This document shows positions 1,800 to 42,135 of a stretch of 64,000 nucleotides of DNA, in pieces. The notes beneath the pieces were generated by a model. It saw only the letters and a list, made by a program, of their open reading frames with translations. It made no database searches and had not been told where the DNA came from. Position 1 is the stretch's first letter; the number at the start of each line of letters is the position of its first letter. A program made the position numbers and the translations under genes. This stretch comes from a phage, in sequence record PZ809289.1. One strand, 5' to 3'.

Positions 1800-1870
1800 G
1801 GCCCTGTAGCTGGACGGTCGAGCGAGCGACTCATAATCGCTGGATGGTGGTTCGATTCCACCCAGGGCCA
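1800..1870 (+). tRNA. tRNA with CAT anticodon (Ile-lysidine type or Met)
   Basis: Cloverleaf by hand folding: acceptor GGCCCTG/CAGGGCC, anticodon stem AGCGA/TCGCT with loop CTCATAA, T-arm GGTGG-TTCGATT-CCACC; CCA not encoded. Confidence 0.75.
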
Positions 1871-2582: not shown

Positions 2583-2657
2583 GTCCCGCTGGTGTAATGG
2601 ATAGCATACGATCCTTCTAAGTTTGCGGTCCTGGTTCGATCCCAGGGCGGGATACCA
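2583..2657 (+). tRNA. tRNA-Arg (anticodon TCT)
   Basis: Acceptor GTCCCGC/GCGGGAT with encoded CCA, anticodon loop CTTCTAA, T-arm CCTGG-TTCGATC-CCAGG. Confidence 0.8.
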
Positions 2658-5756: not shown

Positions 5757-6102
5757 GCCTAGTAAAACCGACCCTGGTTACGCATTAGCAGATTACGATA
5801 TCTCTATTTCATTATTCCTCGGCATTGCTACTAGTATGACTGCAGGGATAATTGGATTTCTTGTCGGTGGGATTATTAATGGTATGCCTCGCCATCCGTT
5901 TGAAGATATGAGCCTCGCGTGGATTTGGGTTCCGGCTTTAATAGGATTTTTTATCCCATGGGTCTTTGATATTGCCCAAACTAATAAAATAAACAAGCCA
6001 CGTAAAAAGAGATATGCTTTAGCTATGGCTAATTATAATGAGTATGTAAAACAAACTAAACGTAATGACCTTGAAACCTTTATTAAGGAATGTAAATCAT
6101 GA
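5749..6102 (+). CDS. membrane protein
   Basis: ATG 5749 overlapping upstream stop, SD AAAGAGG; two hydrophobic helices; C-terminal ETFIKECKS. Confidence 0.5.
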   Translation: MHKPSKTDPGYALADYDISISLFLGIATSMTAGIIGFLVGGIINGMPRHPFEDMSLAWIWVPALIGFFIPWVFDIAQTNKINKPRKKRYALAMANYNEYVKQTKRNDLETFIKECKS

Positions 6103-6389
6103 ATAAAATTGAAATTGAAATCCCGGAACACAATGACGAGAAATCTGCAGAAAAGGCTATCTATGCTCTTCTGAATAAAGTGAATACCATCGAACATGAA
6201 TGTGAAGCTATTGCCGATAAGTATGGTATCCAATTCGGTACTGGTGATTATGGTTCAGGCCGTACATATTATCCTGTCGGTTATGAATGCTCCCAGTGGT
6301 TTAAAGATGAAATTGAAAACAACGGTGGTGAAGTTGAAAATGGCGTCGTTACAGTTGGTGCTTGGATCTCCTCTTCGGCAATGTGCTAA
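6099..6389 (+). CDS. small acidic protein, member 1 of a tandem paralog array ending in C-terminal Cys
   Basis: ATGA overlap; ends GAWISSSAMC; shares ADKYG core with next gene. Confidence 0.6.
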   Translation: MNKIEIEIPEHNDEKSAEKAIYALLNKVNTIEHECEAIADKYGIQFGTGDYGSGRTYYPVGYECSQWFKDEIENNGGEVENGVVTVGAWISSSAMC

Positions 6390-6398
6390 GGAAATTTT

Positions 6399-6680
6399 AT
6401 GATGAATGATTACCATAAAAATAAAGAGCTGGCTGACGCAGTAAATGATATCCACAAAGCTATTCGTCGTGCTGAGGAAATTGCTGACAAATATGAGACT
6501 CATTTTAATATATACCCTGCTCGCGGTATGGGCGGTGACTATTATTCTCCTGGCGCCTTGAAAGCCGACCTTGCCCACTGGGAAGAATACGGTGAAGCTC
6601 AGTACGCTATTGTAAACCAACATGATTACACTACCAGCCTAGAAAATGGTGGTTGGGTGTCCTCTTCTTCTGAATGTTAA
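6399..6680 (+). CDS. small acidic protein, paralog 2
   Basis: SD AAGGAAA; ends GGWVSSSSEC. Confidence 0.6.
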   Translation: MMNDYHKNKELADAVNDIHKAIRRAEEIADKYETHFNIYPARGMGGDYYSPGALKADLAHWEEYGEAQYAIVNQHDYTTSLENGGWVSSSSEC

Positions 6681-6689
6681 GGAAATAAA

Positions 6690-6902
6690 ATGACTATTGA
6701 TGAAATTGAAAACCAAATCCGTGAATTAGTACGTAAAGGCCAGTCTGTGGCTGACGAAACGGGTGAAGAGTTCCGTGTTTCTGGTCGTGGAGAATACATT
6801 TCTCCAAAGAACCCGGAATATGATGATTACGAATGGGTCCGTGATGACTACGGTATTCCGGAAGGTGAAGGTTTCTGGTTTACATCCTCTATGTCTTGCT
6901 AA
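6690..6902 (+). CDS. small acidic protein, paralog 3
   Basis: SD AAGGAAA; ends GFWFTSSMSC. Confidence 0.6.
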   Translation: MTIDEIENQIRELVRKGQSVADETGEEFRVSGRGEYISPKNPEYDDYEWVRDDYGIPEGEGFWFTSSMSC

Positions 6903-6913
6903 GGTGATAAAAA

Positions 6914-7138
6914 ATGTCTGATATTAATGAATTAGAAAAAGCTGCACTTGAACTGGCTGCACTGTATAAGAAAGTAAAAGATATGGCTTCTGCTCAAAGT
7001 TTTGGTGTTGAGCTCGACGATTATGACGGTGAAGTTCGTCTCGAAGATTGGCTGAATAGCTCGTGTTATGGCGAAGAAGCTGGTCGCACCTTCGTTGCTC
7101 GGGCCGATGGTAAAATCTGGTATCCGAGCTCATGCTAA
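6914..7138 (+). CDS. small acidic protein, paralog 4
   Basis: SD AAGGTGA; ends KIWYPSSC. Confidence 0.6.
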   Translation: MSDINELEKAALELAALYKKVKDMASAQSFGVELDDYDGEVRLEDWLNSSCYGEEAGRTFVARADGKIWYPSSC

Positions 7139-15361: not shown

Positions 15362-15572
15362 ATTGACAATTGAAGGCTCTGATGAAGCTCTGAAGATGTT
15401 TGTTGACTGGTTCCATGAACAAGGCGAGCATGGCTTTATGGAATGTTGGGATGGCGGACAATGGAATGGTAAAGAAACCGTTTATCCTAGCACATATATC
15501 TCTGTTCGTGGTGGATATGATGGGATTCATTTAGTTGAATATGATATTGCATCTGATGAGGAAGTGAAATGA
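15354..15572 (+). CDS. small acidic protein
   Basis: 72 aa ORF overlapping neighbours. Confidence 0.45.
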   Translation: MSKLTIEGSDEALKMFVDWFHEQGEHGFMECWDGGQWNGKETVYPSTYISVRGGYDGIHLVEYDIASDEEVK

Positions 15573-15847
15573 TTGAAGATATCAAGGGTTATAAACCGCA
15601 TACCGACGATAAAATCGGTAAAGTGAATGCTATCAAAGATGCTGAAGTTCGTCTTGGGTTAATGTTTAAAGCTCTAGAAGAAGAACATGTTACCTATTAT
15701 ATGAACTTAGATACCGAAGAGGTTTCTGAACAAGAACTAGACCAGGCTCATGAACGCATTACCCAGATTCGTAATGCAATTGACCGTCTTAAAGAAGCTA
15801 GTATGTGGGCTTGTCGCTCTGTGTTCCAACCAGAAGAAAAGTACTAA
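15569..15847 (+). CDS. small acidic protein
   Basis: ATGA overlap; 92 aa. Confidence 0.45.
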   Translation: MIEDIKGYKPHTDDKIGKVNAIKDAEVRLGLMFKALEEEHVTYYMNLDTEEVSEQELDQAHERITQIRNAIDRLKEASMWACRSVFQPEEKY

Positions 15848-15851
15848 AGCA

Positions 15852-15880
15852 GTTTACATCTCCTGTAGGTATGATACTAT
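15852..15880 (+). promoter_or_regulatory. early promoter cassette with flanking inverted repeat
   Basis: GTTTAC 15852-15857, TACTAT 15875-15880, arms ATCTCCTGTAG / CTACAGGAGAT. Confidence 0.6.
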
Positions 15881-15908
15881 AAACCTATCAACTACAGGAG
15901 ATTACAAA

Positions 15909-16367
15909 ATGTCAGAAATTAATTCAGAAGTATTCATCCGCCGCAACAAATTACGTCGTCAGTTCGAAACCGAATTCCGTGAACTGAATGCGTCCATCAA
16001 AAAAGCCGCCATTAAGAGCGGAGTCCCAGCCTTCTTTATTAAGTACTCTAATCACTTGTTGGACCGTGCTATCCAACGTGAAATCGACGAAAAATACGTT
16101 TTTGCTTTATTCAAGCAACTCCATAACCATGTTAAAGAAATTCATGAATTTTTAATCCAGGAACCTCTACCTGATGTAGAATCCGAAATTGTCCCTGGTA
16201 AAGTGTATCGTCCATTGCGTCTCGAAATTACCGATAAAACCTTATGGCTAGGTATGACAGTAGACCGTAAACATCCTGATAAAGGATACTCATTAAAATG
16301 TCGTATGGCATTTGTTAACTCTAAACGTTTAGAAGGTAAAACCAGCACGAAAGTAATCTATCTTTAA
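15909..16367 (+). CDS. regB: RegB endoribonuclease
   Basis: 152 aa; EVFIRRNKLRRQFETEFR...HLLDRAIQREIDE...RPLRLEITD matches my recollection of T4 RegB; ATG 15909 after GGAG, far downstream of track start. Confidence 0.8.
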   Translation: MSEINSEVFIRRNKLRRQFETEFRELNASIKKAAIKSGVPAFFIKYSNHLLDRAIQREIDEKYVFALFKQLHNHVKEIHEFLIQEPLPDVESEIVPGKVYRPLRLEITDKTLWLGMTVDRKHPDKGYSLKCRMAFVNSKRLEGKTSTKVIYL

Positions 16368-21876: not shown

Positions 21877-22329
21877 ATGATTATCAATGCAAACTCTTGG
21901 CACGCTAAACTTCATGACCGTTTTTATGACAGTCATTCTCGACCGCACTCTTTATGTGCTTACTTCTGGAAAATGGTTTGGGCTTGTTTTGCTTGTGCTG
22001 TTGTTGCAGGTAGTACGCTTTTTGGATTAACTGTTGCAGGTGTTGGTGTATTAGAGCATTTCTTTGTATTAAGTACCCCTGTTCTGTTGAGTCTAGGGTT
22101 TGTTTTAGGATTGGTTGCAATAGCTCTTATTATTGCGCTATCCATTGGTTTGGCATTAGGTGTGATGAATTTACACGCATGGTATGATGCACGTAGAGAA
22201 GAAAAGGAATGGCAACGTATTCAAGCTGAGCGTGAAGGCCGAGAAACTAAAGAAAATATCGTTATTCAATACATTAAAGCTCGTAAATCTAAGGTCTGTC
22301 CGGTAATCCACTTCGAGGACAAAGAATGA
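21877..22329 (+). CDS. membrane protein
   Basis: Several hydrophobic helices; SD AAGGAAA. Confidence 0.5.
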   Translation: MIINANSWHAKLHDRFYDSHSRPHSLCAYFWKMVWACFACAVVAGSTLFGLTVAGVGVLEHFFVLSTPVLLSLGFVLGLVAIALIIALSIGLALGVMNLHAWYDARREEKEWQRIQAEREGRETKENIVIQYIKARKSKVCPVIHFEDKE

Positions 22330-23336
22330 GAACAGTTATGAAAGGCTACTTCGGTAGCCACCTTTATGGAACAAGTACTCCGGAATCTGACGTCGATTTT
22401 AAAGAAATCTTTGTTCCACATCCGCGTGATATTCTGTTAGGTACGGCTATGAACCATACCAACCTGAATACGAATAACACTGCTTCCAAAAACACTAAAG
22501 ATGATGTTGACCATGAGCTTTACAGCCTGAAATATTTCTTTAAACTAGCGGCTGAAGGCGAAACCGTTGCTCTGGACATGATTCATACTCCACCTGAACT
22601 GGTGGTTAAATCTGATTTACCTGATGTATGGAAATTTATCCAAGACAATCGTTCTCGGTTCTATACGACTAACATGAAAGCCTATTTAGGGTACGTCCGT
22701 AAGCAAGCTTCTAAATATGGTGTTAAGGGTTCTCGACTAGCTGCACTGCGTGGTGTACTGGCTATTGTTAACCAGATTCCTGAACAGTGGGTCGATTATC
22801 AAGAAGATGGTTCGACTAAACAACGTCGTACTAAGGTAGAAGATATTAAACATCGACTCCCTGAAAATGAGTTCTGTGAATGGGTATTCCATAACCATGA
22901 GAAAACAGGCCCTCAAACGTTCTATACTGTTCTAGGACGTAAGTACCAAACTACTTTGTCTTTAATCGAGCTCAAGCAATCTCTGAATAAGCTTGATGCT
23001 GAATATGGCGAACGTGCTCGTAAGGCTGAAGCTAATGAAGGTATTGACTGGAAAGCTCTGAGCCATGCTTATCGGGCTGGATATCAATTGTTGGAAATCT
23101 ACCAAACAGGCGACCTGGTATTCCCATTGCGCGAAGCCTCTATCATTAAGCTGATTAAGGCCGGTGAACTTCCATTTAAAGAGGTCCAAGAACTTCTTGA
23201 AGACACTGTTGATTTAGTCGAAGTACTGGCTATCCAGGCTCATAAGAACGGTATGCCTGCTAAGGTAGATATGAAGTTCTGGGACAAGTTTGTTGAAGAG
23301 GTATACCTTGACAACCACAACTCTTATTATCGATAA
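22326..23336 (+). CDS. Pol-beta-superfamily nucleotidyltransferase (cGAS/OAS/PAP-like motif)
   Basis: N-terminal GSHLYGTSTPESDVDF = G-S-x3-G-T-x4-S-D-h-D-h, later DDVDHE; 336 aa; ATGA overlap. Confidence 0.6.
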   Translation: MRTVMKGYFGSHLYGTSTPESDVDFKEIFVPHPRDILLGTAMNHTNLNTNNTASKNTKDDVDHELYSLKYFFKLAAEGETVALDMIHTPPELVVKSDLPDVWKFIQDNRSRFYTTNMKAYLGYVRKQASKYGVKGSRLAALRGVLAIVNQIPEQWVDYQEDGSTKQRRTKVEDIKHRLPENEFCEWVFHNHEKTGPQTFYTVLGRKYQTTLSLIELKQSLNKLDAEYGERARKAEANEGIDWKALSHAYRAGYQLLEIYQTGDLVFPLREASIIKLIKAGELPFKEVQELLEDTVDLVEVLAIQAHKNGMPAKVDMKFWDKFVEEVYLDNHNSYYR

Positions 23337-23343
23337 CGAAGAA

Positions 23344-23532
23344 ATGAAGGTCTTTTTATCATATGGAAGACCCCATAAAACCCGACGTTGGTATCTTGAA
23401 GCTGTCTGTAAAGAAACCGGACGTCGAGTCAATATCAAGTACGTGTGCAAACCTACGCCTAAACAGACAAGACAATTTGTTAACTGGGCTATAAATGATA
23501 TACGCTTCCATAATTTTTGGAGCGCAATTTAG
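23344..23532 (+). CDS. small basic protein
   Basis: ATG 23344 after GAAGAAATG; 62 aa; followed by terminator. Confidence 0.4.
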   Translation: MKVFLSYGRPHKTRRWYLEAVCKETGRRVNIKYVCKPTPKQTRQFVNWAINDIRFHNFWSAI

Positions 23533-23554
23533 GAACCTTCGGGTTCCTTTTTTG
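23531..23554 (+). terminator. intrinsic terminator
   Basis: AGGAACC-TTCG-GGTTCCT followed by T-run; identical hairpin recurs at 58538. Confidence 0.65.
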
Positions 23555-23573
23555 GGTTTAGTGCAAAAAAAGA

Positions 23574-23602
23574 GTTTACACCTTCGTAGAGCATGTTATT
23601 AT
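23574..23602 (+). promoter_or_regulatory. early promoter cassette
   Basis: GTTTAC 23574-23579, TATTAT 23597-23602. Confidence 0.55.
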
Positions 23603-23639
23603 GGACCTATCAAATCTACTGAGTGAAATGGAGAATATA

Positions 23640-24620
23640 ATGTTAACTATCAAAATCAACAAAGGTATCTATCGCGGTAATGTAATCTCCGGTACGTTCA
23701 TGAGTTCAGGTAAAACCTGGTTCCCTAATAAAATTCATGAATCCGAAGCTCACCTCGGTGATGGTAAGGTATTTGTACAGATTGATGGTGTTGAACGTGG
23801 TGTATGGGTGTTCAAATGTGACGTTGAAATGGAAGGTGCTGAAGCTCCTGCAGTTGTTACTGAATCCGCTGAAGAAATGAAACATCGCATTAACAAACGT
23901 TTTAAAGTAATGAACATGATGACTAGTGGAATCATCGATGGTAAAATTCGTTCCCTTATCATCTCTGGTGCCGCAGGTATTGGTAAAACATATTCTTTGG
24001 ATAAAGCATTACAGAATGCCCACGAAAATGAAACTATCGAATATAAATCAATCAACGGAAAGATTAGTGGAATCGGTCTTTACGAGCAGCTTTGGAATAA
24101 CCGCGGCCCTAATAGTGTTCTTCTTATTGATGATGTTGATGTATTCTCTGATATGGATATCCTGAACCTGTTAAAAGCAGCATTGGATACTGGTGAAAAA
24201 CGTAAGGTGTGCTGGAGCACTTCAAGTTCTTATCTTGATGATAAAAATATCGATAAAGAATTTGAGTATGAAGGCACCATCGTGTTCATCACCAACGTTG
24301 ATATTGACCGTGAATTAGAGCGTGGAACTAAACTTGCTCCACACCTCCAGGCTTTAGTATCTCGTTCAGTTTACTTAGACCTCGGAGTTCACTCTAACGA
24401 AGAGATTATGGTTCGTGTTGAAGACGTTATCCTGTCCACTGATATGATGCAAAACCGTGGTCTGACTGATGCCGAGACTTACCAAGCTTTAGCATGGATG
24501 AAGGCTAATGTATCTCGTCTTCGTAACGTATCATTACGTACAGCTCTTTATCTGGCGGACTTCATTGCCACCGATAAAAATGACTGGAGCGAAATCGCTG
24601 AAGTTACACTTCTGAAATAA
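23640..24620 (+). CDS. AAA+-type ATPase
   Basis: Walker A SGAAGIGKTY, Walker B VLLIDDVDVF, sensor-1-like FITNVD; ATG 23640 after GGAGAA. Confidence 0.65.
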   Translation: MLTIKINKGIYRGNVISGTFMSSGKTWFPNKIHESEAHLGDGKVFVQIDGVERGVWVFKCDVEMEGAEAPAVVTESAEEMKHRINKRFKVMNMMTSGIIDGKIRSLIISGAAGIGKTYSLDKALQNAHENETIEYKSINGKISGIGLYEQLWNNRGPNSVLLIDDVDVFSDMDILNLLKAALDTGEKRKVCWSTSSSYLDDKNIDKEFEYEGTIVFITNVDIDRELERGTKLAPHLQALVSRSVYLDLGVHSNEEIMVRVEDVILSTDMMQNRGLTDAETYQALAWMKANVSRLRNVSLRTALYLADFIATDKNDWSEIAEVTLLK

Positions 24621-40587: not shown

Positions 40588-41165
40588 TGTATATATGTTA
40601 TCATAATACGATAACCAACACTAAAACCAAGTGTGTCTATCATTATTTTGGTAGACACCGTGTTACTGCTGAAGAATACTACGGTACAGGTAAGTTTGTT
40701 AAGAAATGCAAACGAGAAAATGCTATTACTCCAGGTCTTTGGGAGTTTTGTGTTGAAGTTATCCATACAGTGGATACGTTTAAAGAAGCCAAGATTATTG
40801 AAGAAGAGCTTGTTAAAGAAGGCATATCAAAATATGGTATCCTTTGTGTTAATAAGAATCCTGGTGGTGATGGCGGTGTGGATTACCACACCGAAGAATC
40901 TAAACGTAAAATGTCAGAAACTAGAACAGGAAAATCAAGAATATTTTCCGAAAGTCATAAAGAAAATTTAAGTAAACGAGCCAGAAAATACTCTGATGTT
41001 TGGTCCGAACCTGTATATTCAAATCTTAAAACCATTTGGCTGGAAACAGGTATGTTAAAACGCGGACGGTTTAGTACGCTTTTACAAAAATATGGGTATA
41101 ATTATTCTGCGAATGAATTGAATAAAATTGTTAAACATTTTAATGAGGAAAATAATAATGAGTAA
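40587..41165 (+). CDS. GIY-YIG-like homing endonuclease inserted between genes 45 and 44
   Basis: N-terminal YICYHNTITNTKTKCVYHYFGRH, YYGTGKF and GGDGG motifs shared with the segB-like protein; T4 has no gene here. Confidence 0.6.
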   Translation: MYICYHNTITNTKTKCVYHYFGRHRVTAEEYYGTGKFVKKCKRENAITPGLWEFCVEVIHTVDTFKEAKIIEEELVKEGISKYGILCVNKNPGGDGGVDYHTEESKRKMSETRTGKSRIFSESHKENLSKRARKYSDVWSEPVYSNLKTIWLETGMLKRGRFSTLLQKYGYNYSANELNKIVKHFNEENNNE

Positions 41166-42135
41166 AGTAGTAAATGGTTTAACTATTAATGAAAACGACT
41201 TCATGTGGGAACAGAAATATCGTCCAGGTACTTTATCTGAGTGTATTCTGCCTGCTCATGATAAAGAAACCCTCCAAGCCATTGTTAATAAGGGCCTAAT
41301 CCCTAACATTATCCTAGTCTCTGCTTCACCAGGCACAGGTAAAACTACCGTAGCTAAAGCATTGTGTGCTGATACAAATTCAGATATGCTTTTTGTTAAC
41401 GGTTCCGACTGCCGTATTGATTTCGTTCGTAATGAACTTACTCGTTTTGCATCTTCCAAATCTATCGAAGGTAAACGTAAGGTAATTGTTATCGACGAAT
41501 TCGACCGTGCTGGTGTTGCTGAAGCTCAACGTCACCTTCGTTCGTTCTTAGAAGCCTATTCCTCAAACTGTTCTGTAATTATTACAGCAAACAATATTGA
41601 TGGTATTATCGGCCCACTTCAATCCCGTTGTCGCGTTATTAAATTTGGTGAAGCCACTCCAGCTGACCAAACATCCATGATGAAAGAAATGATTCATCGT
41701 GCTGTAGCGATCTGTAAAAACGAAAATATCGAAGTCGAAGACCTTAAAGTTATTGCTGCTTTAGTTAAACAAAACTTTCCTGATTTCCGTAAAACAGTTA
41801 ACCAACTGGACCGTTACTCATCCAGTGGTAAAATCGATACAGGCATTTTGAGTATTGTAATGAATACCAATTCGCCTATCGATGAAGTAGTGGCTGCACT
41901 TAAAGATAAAAACTTTAAAGAACTCCGTGCATTAGCTCCACGCCATGTCAATGACTATTCCAACTTTATTATGACGCTGGCTAACGAACTCTATGGTAAA
42001 TTGCCTGGGCCAAGCATTGTTAGAATGTATGAAATTGTCGGTGAAAATAACCAATACCACGGTATTGCGGCTAACCCAGAAATTCACATGACTTATCTGT
42101 TCATCCAACTTGCTCTGGAGCTCCAATGGCTATAA
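41158..42135 (+). CDS. 44: clamp loader large subunit gp44
   Basis: WEQKYRPGTL, Walker A SPGTGKTT, DEFDR, SRC motif; ATG 41158. Confidence 0.95.
   Translation: MSKVVNGLTINENDFMWEQKYRPGTLSECILPAHDKETLQAIVNKGLIPNIILVSASPGTGKTTVAKALCADTNSDMLFVNGSDCRIDFVRNELTRFASSKSIEGKRKVIVIDEFDRAGVAEAQRHLRSFLEAYSSNCSVIITANNIDGIIGPLQSRCRVIKFGEATPADQTSMMKEMIHRAVAICKNENIEVEDLKVIAALVKQNFPDFRKTVNQLDRYSSSGKIDTGILSIVMNTNSPIDEVVAALKDKNFKELRALAPRHVNDYSNFIMTLANELYGKLPGPSIVRMYEIVGENNQYHGIAANPEIHMTYLFIQLALELQWL

What the first reader, a model, noticed from the sequence alone, without database searches (positions are those of the whole stretch)
22326..24620. cGAS/OAS/PAP-like nucleotidyltransferase followed by an AAA+ ATPase in an accessory region
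ORF 22326-23336 starts with GSHLYGTSTPESDVDF, an almost textbook G-S-x3-G-[ST]-x4-S-D-h-D-h motif of Pol-beta-superfamily nucleotidyltransferases of the cGAS/DncV/OAS/poly(A)-polymerase type, with a further acidic cluster (DDVDHE) about 40 residues later and a roughly 250-residue helical C-terminal region. One gene cassette downstream (23640-24620) is an AAA+-type ATPase (SGAAGIGKTY, LLIDDVDVF, FITNVD). A phage enzyme of this class could add nucleotides to RNA, or synthesise or mimic nucleotide second messengers used by host immunity. Function cannot be decided from sequence.
Basis: partly seen in the sequence, partly recalled or inferred. Interest (0 to 1): 0.7.

Follow-up and report, generated by a model that had tools for sequence, protein, structure and literature searches.

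The report
T4 NrdC.11-type RNA-repair nucleotidyltransferase (RlaP)

Summary
ORF 22326-23336 (336 aa) carries GSHLYGTSTPESDVDF and DDVDHE, and ORF 23640-24620 (326 aa) carries Walker A and B motifs.

The window is a T4-like Dhakavirus. The two genes are orthologs of T4 nrdC.11 (82.7% identity; 98% to Bp7) and nrdC.10.

[quoted passage not shown] A pLDDT 94.6 model shows a minimal Pol-beta NTase core, a beta-rich insert and a HEPN-like helical bundle. Its nearest solved folds are HalB, 3c18 and kanamycin NTase. No cGAS, OAS, CD-NTase or poly(A) polymerase appears.

Full-length bacterial homologs sit in operons with RtcB, Pnkp/Hen1 and Ro, often in tandem with a canonical short RlaP. Alignment to those fixes the catalytic triad as D22/D24/D62. 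A 2025 preprint shows RlaP adds 1-2 NMP to RNA 3'-OH ends and already lists T4 NrdC.11 as a member.

NrdC.10 follows the NTase in only 38 of 78 phage loci and 0 of 80 bacterial loci. Here a 62-aa gene, a terminator and a promoter separate the two.

Verdict: already known, and the phage function is still untested.

The parts
21877..22329 (+). 150-aa predicted membrane protein (phrog_944). Its stop overlaps the NTase start by 4 nt (ATGA), so the two are probably co-transcribed and translationally coupled. It occupies the position that the mobD homing endonuclease has in T4.
   Evidence: a homolog is present in 30/78 phage loci
22326..23336 (+). nrdC.11 ortholog: 336-aa long-clade RlaP (PF10127) nucleotidyltransferase
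22353..22400 (+). Pol-beta NTase signature GSHLYGTSTPESDVDF (G10, S11; metal-binding D22 and D24)
22500..22517 (+). DDVDHE. D62 aligns with the third invariant aspartate of canonical RlaPs and is the probable third catalytic carboxylate.
22773..22949 (+). Beta-rich insert (residues ~150-208), poorly conserved and specific to the long NrdC.11-type clade. It interrupts the match to the Pfam RlaP profile.
22962..23330 (+). C-terminal helical bundle (residues 213-335), HEPN/KNTase_C-like, with invariant H247, R250 and P267 and the DWKAxSHAxR motif
23344..23532 (+). 62-aa ORF (phrog_8921, function unknown). Present in IME281 but unannotated there; absent in Bp7.
23531..23548 (+). Intrinsic-terminator-like hairpin (AGGAACC-TTCG-GGTTCCT followed by a T-run), conserved in Bp7 and IME281
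23575..23602 (+). Sigma-70 / T4-early-type promoter-like site (TTTACA, 16-nt spacer, TG, TATTAT; 10 of 12 matches) upstream of nrdC.10, conserved in Bp7 and IME281
23640..24620 (+). nrdC.10 ortholog: 326-aa P-loop (AAA+-like) ATPase, phrog_1250. Small N-terminal domain, ATPase core, helical C-terminus.
23967..23990 (+). Walker A GAAGIGKT (G110-T117)
24120..24140 (+). Walker B LLIDDVD (D164 and D165 invariant)

Best explanation
ORF1 is the ortholog of phage T4 NrdC.11. It belongs to a "long" clade of the RlaP family (PF10127) of Pol-beta nucleotidyltransferases.

Most likely it is a template-independent RNA 3'-end nucleotidyltransferase. D22, D24 and D62 would hold two divalent metals (probably Mn2+), and the enzyme would add one or two NMPs to the 3'-OH of a broken RNA, typically the 5' half of a tRNA cut in the anticodon loop. 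This would happen after phage Pnkp has removed the 3' phosphate and before Rnl1 or Rnl2 reseals the break. The point would be to restore nucleotides removed by host anticodon nucleases that excise as well as cut (RloC type), extending the classic T4 Pnkp/Rnl1 tRNA-repair counter-defence.

Shown here: orthology, family membership, fold, conserved catalytic residues, and operon linkage of full-length homologs to RNA-repair genes.

Taken from the literature: the biochemical activity, measured only on canonical short RlaPs.

Inferred: the activity of this long clade, and its role in the phage.

ORF2 (NrdC.10) is a separate P-loop/AAA+-like ATPase of unknown role. It is a syntenic neighbour in many T-even-like phages, has its own promoter, and is not required wherever the NTase occurs.
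For: Orthology:
- 97% nucleotide identity to Dhakavirus phages.
- 82.7% amino-acid identity to T4 NrdC.11 and 98% to Bp7 nrdC.11.
- Same synteny as T4: tk ... mobD.1 - nrdC.11 - nrdC.10 - nrdC.8 ... nrdC.

Family:
- PF10127 at 43.7 bits against a cut-off of 23.
- 139/140 diverse representatives hit PF10127.
- After removing the insert, the match extends to profile positions 25-199 of 249.
- phrog_388 nucleotidyltransferase, E 3.5e-132.

Fold:
- AF2 model with pLDDT 94.6 and pTM 0.83.
- The viral structure library returns phage, giant-virus and baculovirus HE65 NTases.

Catalytic residues: G10, S21, D22, D24 and D62 are invariant in an alignment with canonical RlaPs that score 175-226 bits.

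Context of homologs:
- 11 of 80 bacterial loci have RtcB, Pnkp, Hen1 or Ro/TROVE within 6 kb, several as tight operons: L084 Hen1-Pnkp-NTase with a 35-nt gap, L011 Ro-NTase with a 10-nt gap, L068 RtcB-NTase.
- The closest phage relative encodes RnlA, PseT (Pnkp) and RnlB.

Literature:
- RlaP adds 1-2 NMP to RNA 3'-OH, prefers damaged-tRNA mimics, prefers Mn2+, and restores aminoacylation of a tRNA lacking one nucleotide. T4 NrdC.11 is named as an RlaP in SSN cluster 5 (PMC12776372).
- RlaP is predicted to restore nucleotides lost to RloC-type nucleases before ligation (PMC7824862).
Against: - The biochemistry was done on short canonical RlaPs from a different SSN cluster. The long clade matches the Pfam profile only weakly (43-54 bits, N-terminal half) and carries an extra beta-rich insert.
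- In bacteria the long and short forms occur in tandem in 18 of 67 loci. That argues they are not redundant, so the long form may have a different substrate or step.
- In phages the gene is not adjacent to RNA-repair genes: only 1 of 78 loci has RnlA within 8 kb, and in IME281 the ligases and Pnkp are 57-87 kb away.
- No experimental phenotype exists. T4 tolerates deletion of nrdC.11-mobD.3 (PMC9825161).
- The PfRlaP crystal structure was not in the PDB copy, so no direct structural superposition was possible.
Confidence: 0.6

Rival explanations
1. One reading: a cGAS/DncV/OAS-like enzyme that synthesises or mimics nucleotide second messengers to subvert CBASS, Thoeris or similar immunity.
Against: - No Pfam hit to SMODS, Mab-21, OAS1_C or PAP_assoc even at E<=1.
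- No CBASS cyclase hit in PADLOC.
- No cGAS/OAS/CD-NTase structure in the top 50-60 fold matches.
- The HalB match is 141 residues at 12% identity, essentially the shared minimal NTase core.
- Bacterial homologs sit with RNA-repair genes, not with effectors or sensors.
Confidence: 0.04
2. The NTase and the downstream AAA+-like ATPase form one two-gene functional system, for example an ATPase that loads or remodels the RNA substrate for the NTase.
For: The genes are adjacent and co-oriented in T4 (114-nt gap). NrdC.10 is always downstream on the same strand in the 38 phage loci where it is present, including distant Acinetobacter phages.
Against: - NrdC.10 is absent within 8 kb in 40 of 78 phage loci, including three whose NTase is 92% identical to this one.
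- It is absent from all 80 bacterial loci.
- The two genes are unlinked in the KVP40-like phage ValKK3.
- The gap varies from ~110 to ~3300 nt.
- Here a 62-aa gene, a terminator and a promoter lie between them.
Confidence: 0.07
3. A KNTase/MNT-like enzyme that nucleotidylates a protein or small molecule rather than RNA. One example would be AMPylating and neutralising a host HEPN-type RNase toxin, as MntA antitoxins do.
For: Fold matches include kanamycin NTase, LinB, AadA and the MNT antitoxin. The C-terminal domain resembles HEPN bundles, including HEPN toxins from MNT-HEPN pairs. There is a weak MntA match (E 0.014, 15.2 bits against a cut-off of 60) over the GS-DxD motif only.
Against: The preprint found that proteins and DNA are not substrates for canonical RlaPs and that RNA is. 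The family-level Pfam assignment is RlaP. Gene neighbourhoods point to RNA ligases and Pnkp/Hen1/Ro, not toxins.
Confidence: 0.1
4. An RNA 3'-tailing enzyme with a different purpose. Examples: maintaining the 3' ends (CCA) of phage or host tRNAs, or tagging host transcripts for decay during takeover.
For: The chemistry would be the same as RlaP. The phage encodes its own tRNAs. The gene lies in the early region among RNA-directed functions such as RegB. It is not adjacent to repair genes in phages.
Against: RlaP prefers the break-site 3' end of a cleaved-tRNA mimic over the acceptor-side fragment. Bacterial homologs are embedded in dedicated repair operons. There is no similarity to CCA-adding enzymes in Pfam or in the fold searches.
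Confidence: 0.15

Closest known systems
Phage T4 NrdC.11 (AAD42629.1) and its Dhakavirus orthologs (e.g. Bp7 YP_007004080.1, IME281 YP_010094327.1)
   Same: 82.7% identity to T4 and 98% to Bp7 (P0002). Same length (336 aa), same position between mobD.1/mobD and nrdC.10, and annotated as nucleotidyltransferase in RefSeq.
   Different: The upstream neighbour is a membrane-protein gene rather than the mobD homing endonuclease. An extra 62-aa ORF lies between nrdC.11 and nrdC.10.
Canonical RlaP (PF10127): Pseudomonas fluorescens / P. aeruginosa RlaP of the rtcB-rlaP-rtcA operon (PMC12776372)
   Same: Same Pfam family. Same GS...DxD...D catalytic set (G10, S21, D22, D24, D62). N-terminal NTase domain plus C-terminal helical domain. 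Homologs of both types lie in RtcB and Pnkp/Hen1 operons.
   Different: - NrdC.11 is ~70-80 residues longer and has a beta-rich insert at ~150-208.
- It is only 14-18% identical to canonical RlaPs in alignment A5.
- It scores 43.7 bits, against 175-226 bits for canonical members.
- It belongs to a different SSN cluster (5, versus 1a).
- In bacteria it co-occurs in tandem with the short form, which implies a distinct role.
- Its activity has not been measured.
Hailong HalB (PDB 9dbh), a protein-primed oligodeoxyadenylate synthase
   Different: 12% identity. HalB is 217 aa and lacks the insert and the long helical domain. HalB is paired with the HalA channel, and no such gene is present here. 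No sequence-family link was found.
Kanamycin nucleotidyltransferase ANT(4') and MNT-HEPN proteins
   Different: About 10% identity. These enzymes act on small molecules or proteins. There is no Pfam match to those families above threshold.
cGAS / DncV (CD-NTase) / OAS / poly(A) polymerase
   Same: Only the superfamily-level Pol-beta active-site motif.
   Different: No profile hits, no close fold match, no PAP/OAS-type C-terminal lobe, and no effector or sensor genes nearby.
Phage T4 NrdC.10 (AAD42628.1), for ORF2
   Same: 77% identity, the same 326-aa length class, phrog_1250, and Walker A/B motifs. It was noted as a weak AAA ATPase match in 2006.
   Different: None of significance. Function is unknown in all members.

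Membership tests
[quoted passage not shown] | Scores above the curated gathering threshold of the PF10127 profile | tested here: met
   43.7 bits against a cut-off of 23, E 3.6e-11. 139 of 140 family representatives hit PF10127. All 120 close relatives carry a precomputed PF10127 hit.
[quoted passage not shown] | Pol-beta catalytic signature: G[SG] loop, DxD, and a third conserved aspartate shared with canonical RlaPs | tested here: met
   G10, S11, D22, D24 and D62 are conserved at 94% or more in 140 representatives. G10, S21, D22, D24 and D62 are invariant when aligned with three canonical RlaPs scoring 175-226 bits.
[quoted passage not shown] | Architecture: N-terminal NTase domain plus C-terminal helical domain, collinear with the RlaP profile | tested here: met
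   The AF2 model (pLDDT 94.6) shows an NTase core followed by a helical bundle. With the 151-208 insert removed, the Pfam match runs to profile position 199 of 249. Caveats: the extra beta-rich insert, and no superposition on PfRlaP because its coordinates are not in the PDB copy.
[quoted passage not shown] | Genomic association with RNA ligases and RNA-repair genes | tested here: inconclusive
   Met for full-length bacterial homologs: 11 of 80 loci have RtcB, Pnkp, Hen1 or Ro within 6 kb, several as operons. Not met locally in phages: 1 of 78 loci has RnlA within 8 kb. The closest relative does encode RnlA, PseT and RnlB elsewhere in its genome.
[quoted passage not shown] | Enzymatic activity: adds 1-2 NMP to the 3'-OH of RNA, not DNA or protein | not testable with these tools
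   Shown only for P. fluorescens and P. aeruginosa RlaP (PMC12776372). No data exist for the NrdC.11 clade.
CD-NTase / cGAS / OAS | Profile match to SMODS, Mab-21, OAS1_C or CBASS cyclase models | tested here: not met
   No such Pfam family at E<=1. PADLOC returns only PDC-S09 at E 0.004-0.04 over 17 residues.
CD-NTase / cGAS / OAS | Bilobed cGAS/OAS fold as the nearest structural relative | tested here: not met
CD-NTase / cGAS / OAS | Operon with a signal-activated effector or Cap genes | tested here: not met
   The neighbours are a small membrane protein, a 62-aa ORF, NrdC.10 and NrdC.8/6-type proteins of unknown function. Bacterial homologs have RNA-repair neighbours.
Poly(A) polymerase / TUTase | PAP_central or PAP_assoc domains, or a close fold match | tested here: not met
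   No Pfam hits. Cid1 appears only at Foldseek rank 45 with probability 0.09.
MenT / AbiEii-type tRNA nucleotidyltransferase toxins | Profile or fold match to the MenT/AbiEii (DUF1814) family | tested here: not met
   No hit in Pfam, NCBIfam or PADLOC. None appears in the fold-search lists.
AAA+ ATPase (for ORF2 / NrdC.10) | Conserved Walker A (GxxGxGKT) and Walker B (hhhhDD) motifs | tested here: met
   G110, G113, G115, K116, T117 and D164, D165 are invariant in 27 sequences down to 52% identity.
AAA+ ATPase (for ORF2 / NrdC.10) | Scores above threshold to an AAA+ profile, or an AAA+ fold with lid domain, sensor and arginine finger | tested here: inconclusive
   - Best Pfam hits are below their cut-offs: AAA_14 24.9 bits against 27, AAA_22 23.6 against 27. 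AAA_16 and AAA_22 hit 23-24 of 27 members weakly.
- A PDB profile search gives only Cdc6 at E 0.05.
- hhalign against the phage's own clamp-loader-position ORF (window 41128-42132) gives probability 12.9%.
- N219 and R242 are invariant and could be sensor-1 and the arginine finger (inference).
Two-gene NTase + ATPase system | Consistent co-occurrence and adjacency of the two genes across lineages | tested here: not met
   38 of 78 phage loci and 0 of 80 bacterial loci. The gap varies from ~110 to 3300 nt, and the genes are unlinked in ValKK3.

The most novel reading that the evidence does not exclude
The phage's long-clade RlaP is not an RNA-repair enzyme but a primer-independent or protein-primed oligo(deoxy)nucleotide synthase, like its best structural match HalB. 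Its product would act as a decoy or surrogate signal, for example oligo-dA that keeps a Hailong-type HalA channel closed. That would make it a phage-encoded signal-mimicking anti-defence enzyme.

A milder novel reading: the long clade performs a step distinct from canonical RlaP, as its tandem pairing with short RlaP in bacteria suggests, and is the missing third enzyme that lets T-even phages survive nucleotide-excising anticodon nucleases such as RloC.
Probability: 0.04. Interest if true: 0.8.

Novelty: already known. Interest (0 to 1): 0.28.

Why it matters
The T4 Pnkp/Rnl1 pathway was the first RNA-repair system described. Host anticodon nucleases of the RloC type are thought to defeat it by excising a nucleotide. 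If NrdC.11-type RlaPs put that nucleotide back, T-even phages carry a three-enzyme counter-defence, and a 25-year-old "conserved hypothetical" T4 gene gets a function.

This is directly testable with a deletion mutant and a simple in vitro assay. However, the family assignment and the hypothesis are already in the literature (Burroughs & Aravind 2016, as cited in PMC7824862, and PMC12776372), and near-identical proteins are already annotated as nucleotidyltransferases. The finding is therefore a correct re-discovery rather than something new.

Two modest additions come out of this work:
- The T4-type enzymes form a distinct long clade with an inserted subdomain.
- In bacteria that clade is frequently paired in tandem with a canonical short RlaP inside RtcB and Pnkp/Hen1 operons.

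Tried and rejected
- Sequence searches of ORF1 against PDB chains, as a single sequence and as a profile, found nothing meaningful. The best was a SAM-sensor protein at E 0.012-1.6 over the helical region. The PfRlaP structure is evidently not in the copy.
- The first AF2 run, with a shallow 27-sequence alignment, gave an unusable N-terminal domain (pLDDT <50 for residues 1-56). It was replaced by a 140-sequence alignment.
- The afdb50 fold library was not available, so BFVD was used instead.
- PADLOC and NCBIfam gave only sub-threshold motif-level hits.
- NrdC.10: the PDB profile search (Cdc6, E 0.05) and hhalign against the window's clamp-loader-position ORF (probability 12.9%) were too weak to place it in an AAA+ clade.
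- An apparent long+short RlaP fusion in L071 was an artefact of my simple ORF caller on high-GC DNA.
- The Burroughs & Aravind 2016 paper is not held, so it is cited only through papers that describe it.
- I tried to confirm the known anti-CBASS genes (57B/Acb1, vs.4/Acb2) in the window. PHROGs returned only "unknown function" families, so nothing beyond synteny was established.
Full report
**1. Observation**

Both ORFs are present on the + strand. ORF1 (22326-23336, 336 aa) begins MRTVMKGYFGSHLYGTSTPESDVDFKEIF. The quoted motif is residues 10-25, and DDVDHE is residues 59-64.

The mechanical ORF for the second gene starts at 23601. However, 120 relatives are nearly all 326 aa, and the closest RefSeq relative annotates the equivalent start. 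SGAAGIGKTY, LLIDDVDVF and FITNVD are all there.

The motifs are under selection, not chance:
- In 140 representatives of ORF1's family (mean column identity 26%), G10 is invariant and S11, S21, D22, D24, D60, D62 and D84 are conserved at 94% or more.
- In 27 NrdC.10 relatives down to 52% identity, the Walker A and B residues are invariant.

One correction: the C-terminal region is not all helical. Residues ~150-208 form a poorly conserved beta-rich insert.

**2. What genome and which genes**

The 2.9-kb stretch is 97% identical to Dhakavirus phages (IME281, QL01, Bp7), which are T4-like myoviruses of E. coli. Bp7 and IME281 annotate the two genes as nrdC.11 (nucleotidyltransferase) and nrdC.10.

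ORF1 is 82.7% identical to T4 NrdC.11 and has homologs in 1,547 phage records. ORF2 is about 77% identical to T4 NrdC.10 and has homologs in 1,312 records.

In T4 the order is mobD - nrdC.11 - (114 nt) - nrdC.10 - nrdC.9. In this window two things differ:
- A 150-aa membrane-protein gene (phrog_944) replaces mobD and overlaps the NTase start by 4 nt.
- The nrdC.11-nrdC.10 spacer holds a 62-codon ORF (phrog_8921, E 5.8e-34). It is followed by a UUCG-loop terminator (23531-23548) and a T4-early-type promoter (23575-23602). Both are conserved in Bp7, which lacks the small ORF.

The region lies in the plastic early tk-nrdC segment. T4 tolerates deletion of nrdC.11-mobD.3 (PMC9825161).

**3. Family of ORF1**

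Pfam places it in PF10127 (RlaP) at 43.7 bits against a gathering score of 23. Nothing else is significant even at E<=1: no SMODS, Mab-21, OAS1_C or PAP families. PHROGs gives phrog_388 "nucleotidyltransferase" at 3.5e-132. NCBIfam and PADLOC give only motif-length, sub-threshold hits.

An exhaustive profile search finds 3,963 cluster representatives at E<=1e-3 and 1,156 at E<=1e-30, mostly full-length at 310-350 aa. Of 140 representatives, 139 hit PF10127.

The Pfam match covers only residues 8-134. Deleting the 151-208 insert extends it through the helical domain, to profile positions 25-199 of 249 at 46.1 bits. The protein is therefore an RlaP core with an inserted subdomain.

**4. Structure**

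A shallow alignment gave a poor model. A 140-sequence alignment gave pLDDT 94.6 and pTM 0.83. The model has:
- a beta-alpha-beta minimal NTase core (residues 1-95);
- connecting helices;
- a beta-rich insert (154-208);
- a long helical bundle (213-335).

Against solved structures:
- Foldseek's best hits are kanamycin NTase, the 3c18 NTase-like protein and Hailong HalB, all at E >= 5e-3.
- No cGAS, OAS, CD-NTase or poly(A) polymerase is in either list.

The viral structure library returns full-length matches (TM up to 0.7-0.9) to phage, jumbo-phage, giant-virus and baculovirus HE65 nucleotidyltransferases.

The PfRlaP crystal structure described in the preprint is not in the PDB copy, so no direct superposition was possible.

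**5. Evidence from homologs elsewhere**

A scan of one genome per bacterial and archaeal species found 141 loci encoding full-length relatives at 31-51% identity, of which the best 80 were kept. I clustered their neighbours and checked them with Pfam.

Eleven of the 80 loci have an RNA-repair gene within 6 kb: RtcB in 7, Pnkp in 3, Hen1 in 3 and Ro/TROVE in 3. Several are tight operons:
- L084: Hen1 - Pnkp - (35 nt) - NTase
- L011: Ro - (10 nt) - NTase
- L068: RtcB - NTase
- L035: Ro - RtcB - x - NTase - Hen1

Unexpectedly, 18 of the 67 loci with enough downstream sequence have a second, shorter NTase (252-289 aa) directly after the long one. The three short paralogs scanned are canonical RlaPs, scoring 175-226 bits over the whole profile, whereas the long ones score 43-54 bits over the N-terminal half.

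Aligning long and short forms leaves G10, G15, S21, D22, D24 and D62 invariant. That identifies D22/D24/D62 as the catalytic triad.

No short RlaP is found in the window or in 78 phage loci.

**6. Relation to NrdC.10**

In 78 diverse phage loci, an NrdC.10 homolog lies downstream on the same strand in 38. The gaps range from ~110 to ~3,300 nt. It is missing within 8 kb in 40 loci, including three whose NTase is 92% identical to this one.

It is absent from all 80 bacterial loci and unlinked in the KVP40-like phage ValKK3. Together with the terminator and promoter between the genes here, this argues that the adjacency is inherited T-even synteny at an insertion hot spot, not a functional module.

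NrdC.10 itself is a P-loop ATPase with invariant Walker motifs. Its matches to AAA_14, AAA_16, AAA_22 and nSTAND profiles are weak and sub-threshold. A PDB profile search gives only Cdc6 at E 0.05, and the comparison with the phage's own clamp-loader-position ORF is uninformative. Its family is essentially phage-only, with 387 database clusters. A weak AAA match for nrdC.10 and a COG3541 NTase match for nrdC.11 were already noted in 2006 (PMC1524935).

**7. Mechanism**

A December 2025 preprint (PMC12776372) reports the following for two canonical Pseudomonas RlaPs:
- They label RNA but not DNA or protein.
- They add one or two NMPs (or dNMPs) to RNA 3'-OH ends.
- They prefer the break-site end of a cleaved-tRNA mimic.
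- They prefer Mn2+.
- They partially restore aminoacylation of a tRNA missing one anticodon-loop nucleotide.

The preprint names T4 NrdC.11 as an RlaP in a separate similarity cluster, "of unknown function". Earlier comparative work, as summarised in PMC7824862, predicted that RlaP restores nucleotides removed by RloC-type nucleases before ligation.

The closest relative of this phage encodes Pnkp (PseT), Rnl1 and Rnl2. These ligases need exactly the 3'-OH/5'-P ends that an RlaP product provides.

My best explanation is therefore as follows. After a host anticodon nuclease cuts and trims a tRNA, Pnkp heals the ends, NrdC.11 adds back one or two nucleotides, and Rnl1 or Rnl2 seals the break.

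- Shown: orthology, family, fold, catalytic residues, and repair-operon context of homologs.
- From the literature: the activity of canonical RlaP.
- Inferred: the activity of the long clade and its role in the phage.

Weak points:
- Divergence from the assayed enzymes.
- The tandem long/short pairing, which suggests non-redundant roles.
- Lack of local linkage to repair genes in phages (1 of 78 loci).
- No phenotype. No experimental paper on the phage enzyme was found.

**8. Comparison and verdict**

The cGAS/OAS/PAP label and the pairing idea fail the tests listed in the membership table.

The gene is a member of RlaP and an ortholog of a catalogued T4 gene. Proteins 97-99% identical are already in public databases, many annotated as nucleotidyltransferase. 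Many others are mislabelled "thioredoxin", apparently because of the nrdC.x gene names.

Novelty: already known. Interest is low to moderate. The enzyme's role in T-even phages is still untested and is easy to test. The long-clade/short-clade distinction and their tandem pairing in bacteria add a small new angle.

Noticed in passing
window 23344-23532 (+): A 62-codon ORF (MKVFLSYGRPHKTRRWYLEAVCKETGRR...) between nrdC.11 and nrdC.10 is a real phage gene family (phrog_8921, E 5.8e-34). It is present in IME281 at identical sequence but not annotated there, and it is absent from Bp7. The nrdC.11-nrdC.10 gap is an insertion hot spot, varying from ~110 to 3300 nt across phages.
   Followed up: partly
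L014, L018, L019, L025, L027, L035, L037, L049, L058, L061, L068, L071, L072, L074, L075, L078, L081, L084 (bacterial loci; NTase at ~6001-6990 in most): In 18 of 67 bacterial loci, the long NrdC.11-type RlaP is immediately followed by a canonical short RlaP (252-289 aa; the three scanned score 175-226 bits to PF10127), often with overlapping stop and start codons. This is a conserved long+short tandem that implies the two forms are not redundant. Phages carry only the long form.
   Followed up: partly
window 21877-22329 (+): A 150-aa membrane-protein gene (phrog_944, weak oleosin-like hydrophobic hairpin) overlaps the NTase start codon by 4 nt (ATGA). That is a tighter link than the one to nrdC.10. 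T4 has the mobD homing endonuclease at this position. A homolog is present in 30 of 78 phage loci.
   Followed up: partly
public records matched: Many GenBank and UniRef entries name NrdC.11 and NrdC.10 homologs "thioredoxin". This looks like an annotation error propagated from the gene names nrdC.10 and nrdC.11, which merely indicate position next to nrdC. One is even labelled "HNH homing endonuclease".
   Followed up: no
L010 1614-4799, L017 7676-10866, L030 7558-12378: Three loci share a conserved block downstream of the NTase: a ~510-aa protein with a UDG-superfamily domain followed by a ResIII/SNF2-type helicase. In L030 an RtcB follows as well. This may be a phage-like or defence-like module. 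Its function was not examined.
   Followed up: no
window 1800-1870 and 2583-2657 (+): Only two tRNA genes (Met-CAT, Arg-TCT) are found in the window's tRNA region, fewer than T4's eight. This is relevant background for a phage that may repair tRNAs.
   Followed up: no
window 15569-15847 (+) and 15750-16367 (+): A 92-aa ORF (phrog_717) sits directly upstream of the RegB endoribonuclease gene (phrog_1323), at the position of vs.4 in Bp7. From my own knowledge, T4 Vs.4 is the Acb2 cyclic-oligonucleotide sponge. If so, the phage's known anti-CBASS function would lie here rather than in nrdC.11. This was not verified beyond synteny.
   Followed up: partly
L006 (Flagellimonas marina) and L007 (Bacilli MAG), NTase at 6001-6999 / 6001-6960: The two best "bacterial" hits (51% identity) may be prophage or mis-binned phage contigs. 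L007 also encodes a T4-like thymidine kinase and a NadR/Nudix-like protein near the NTase.
   Followed up: no
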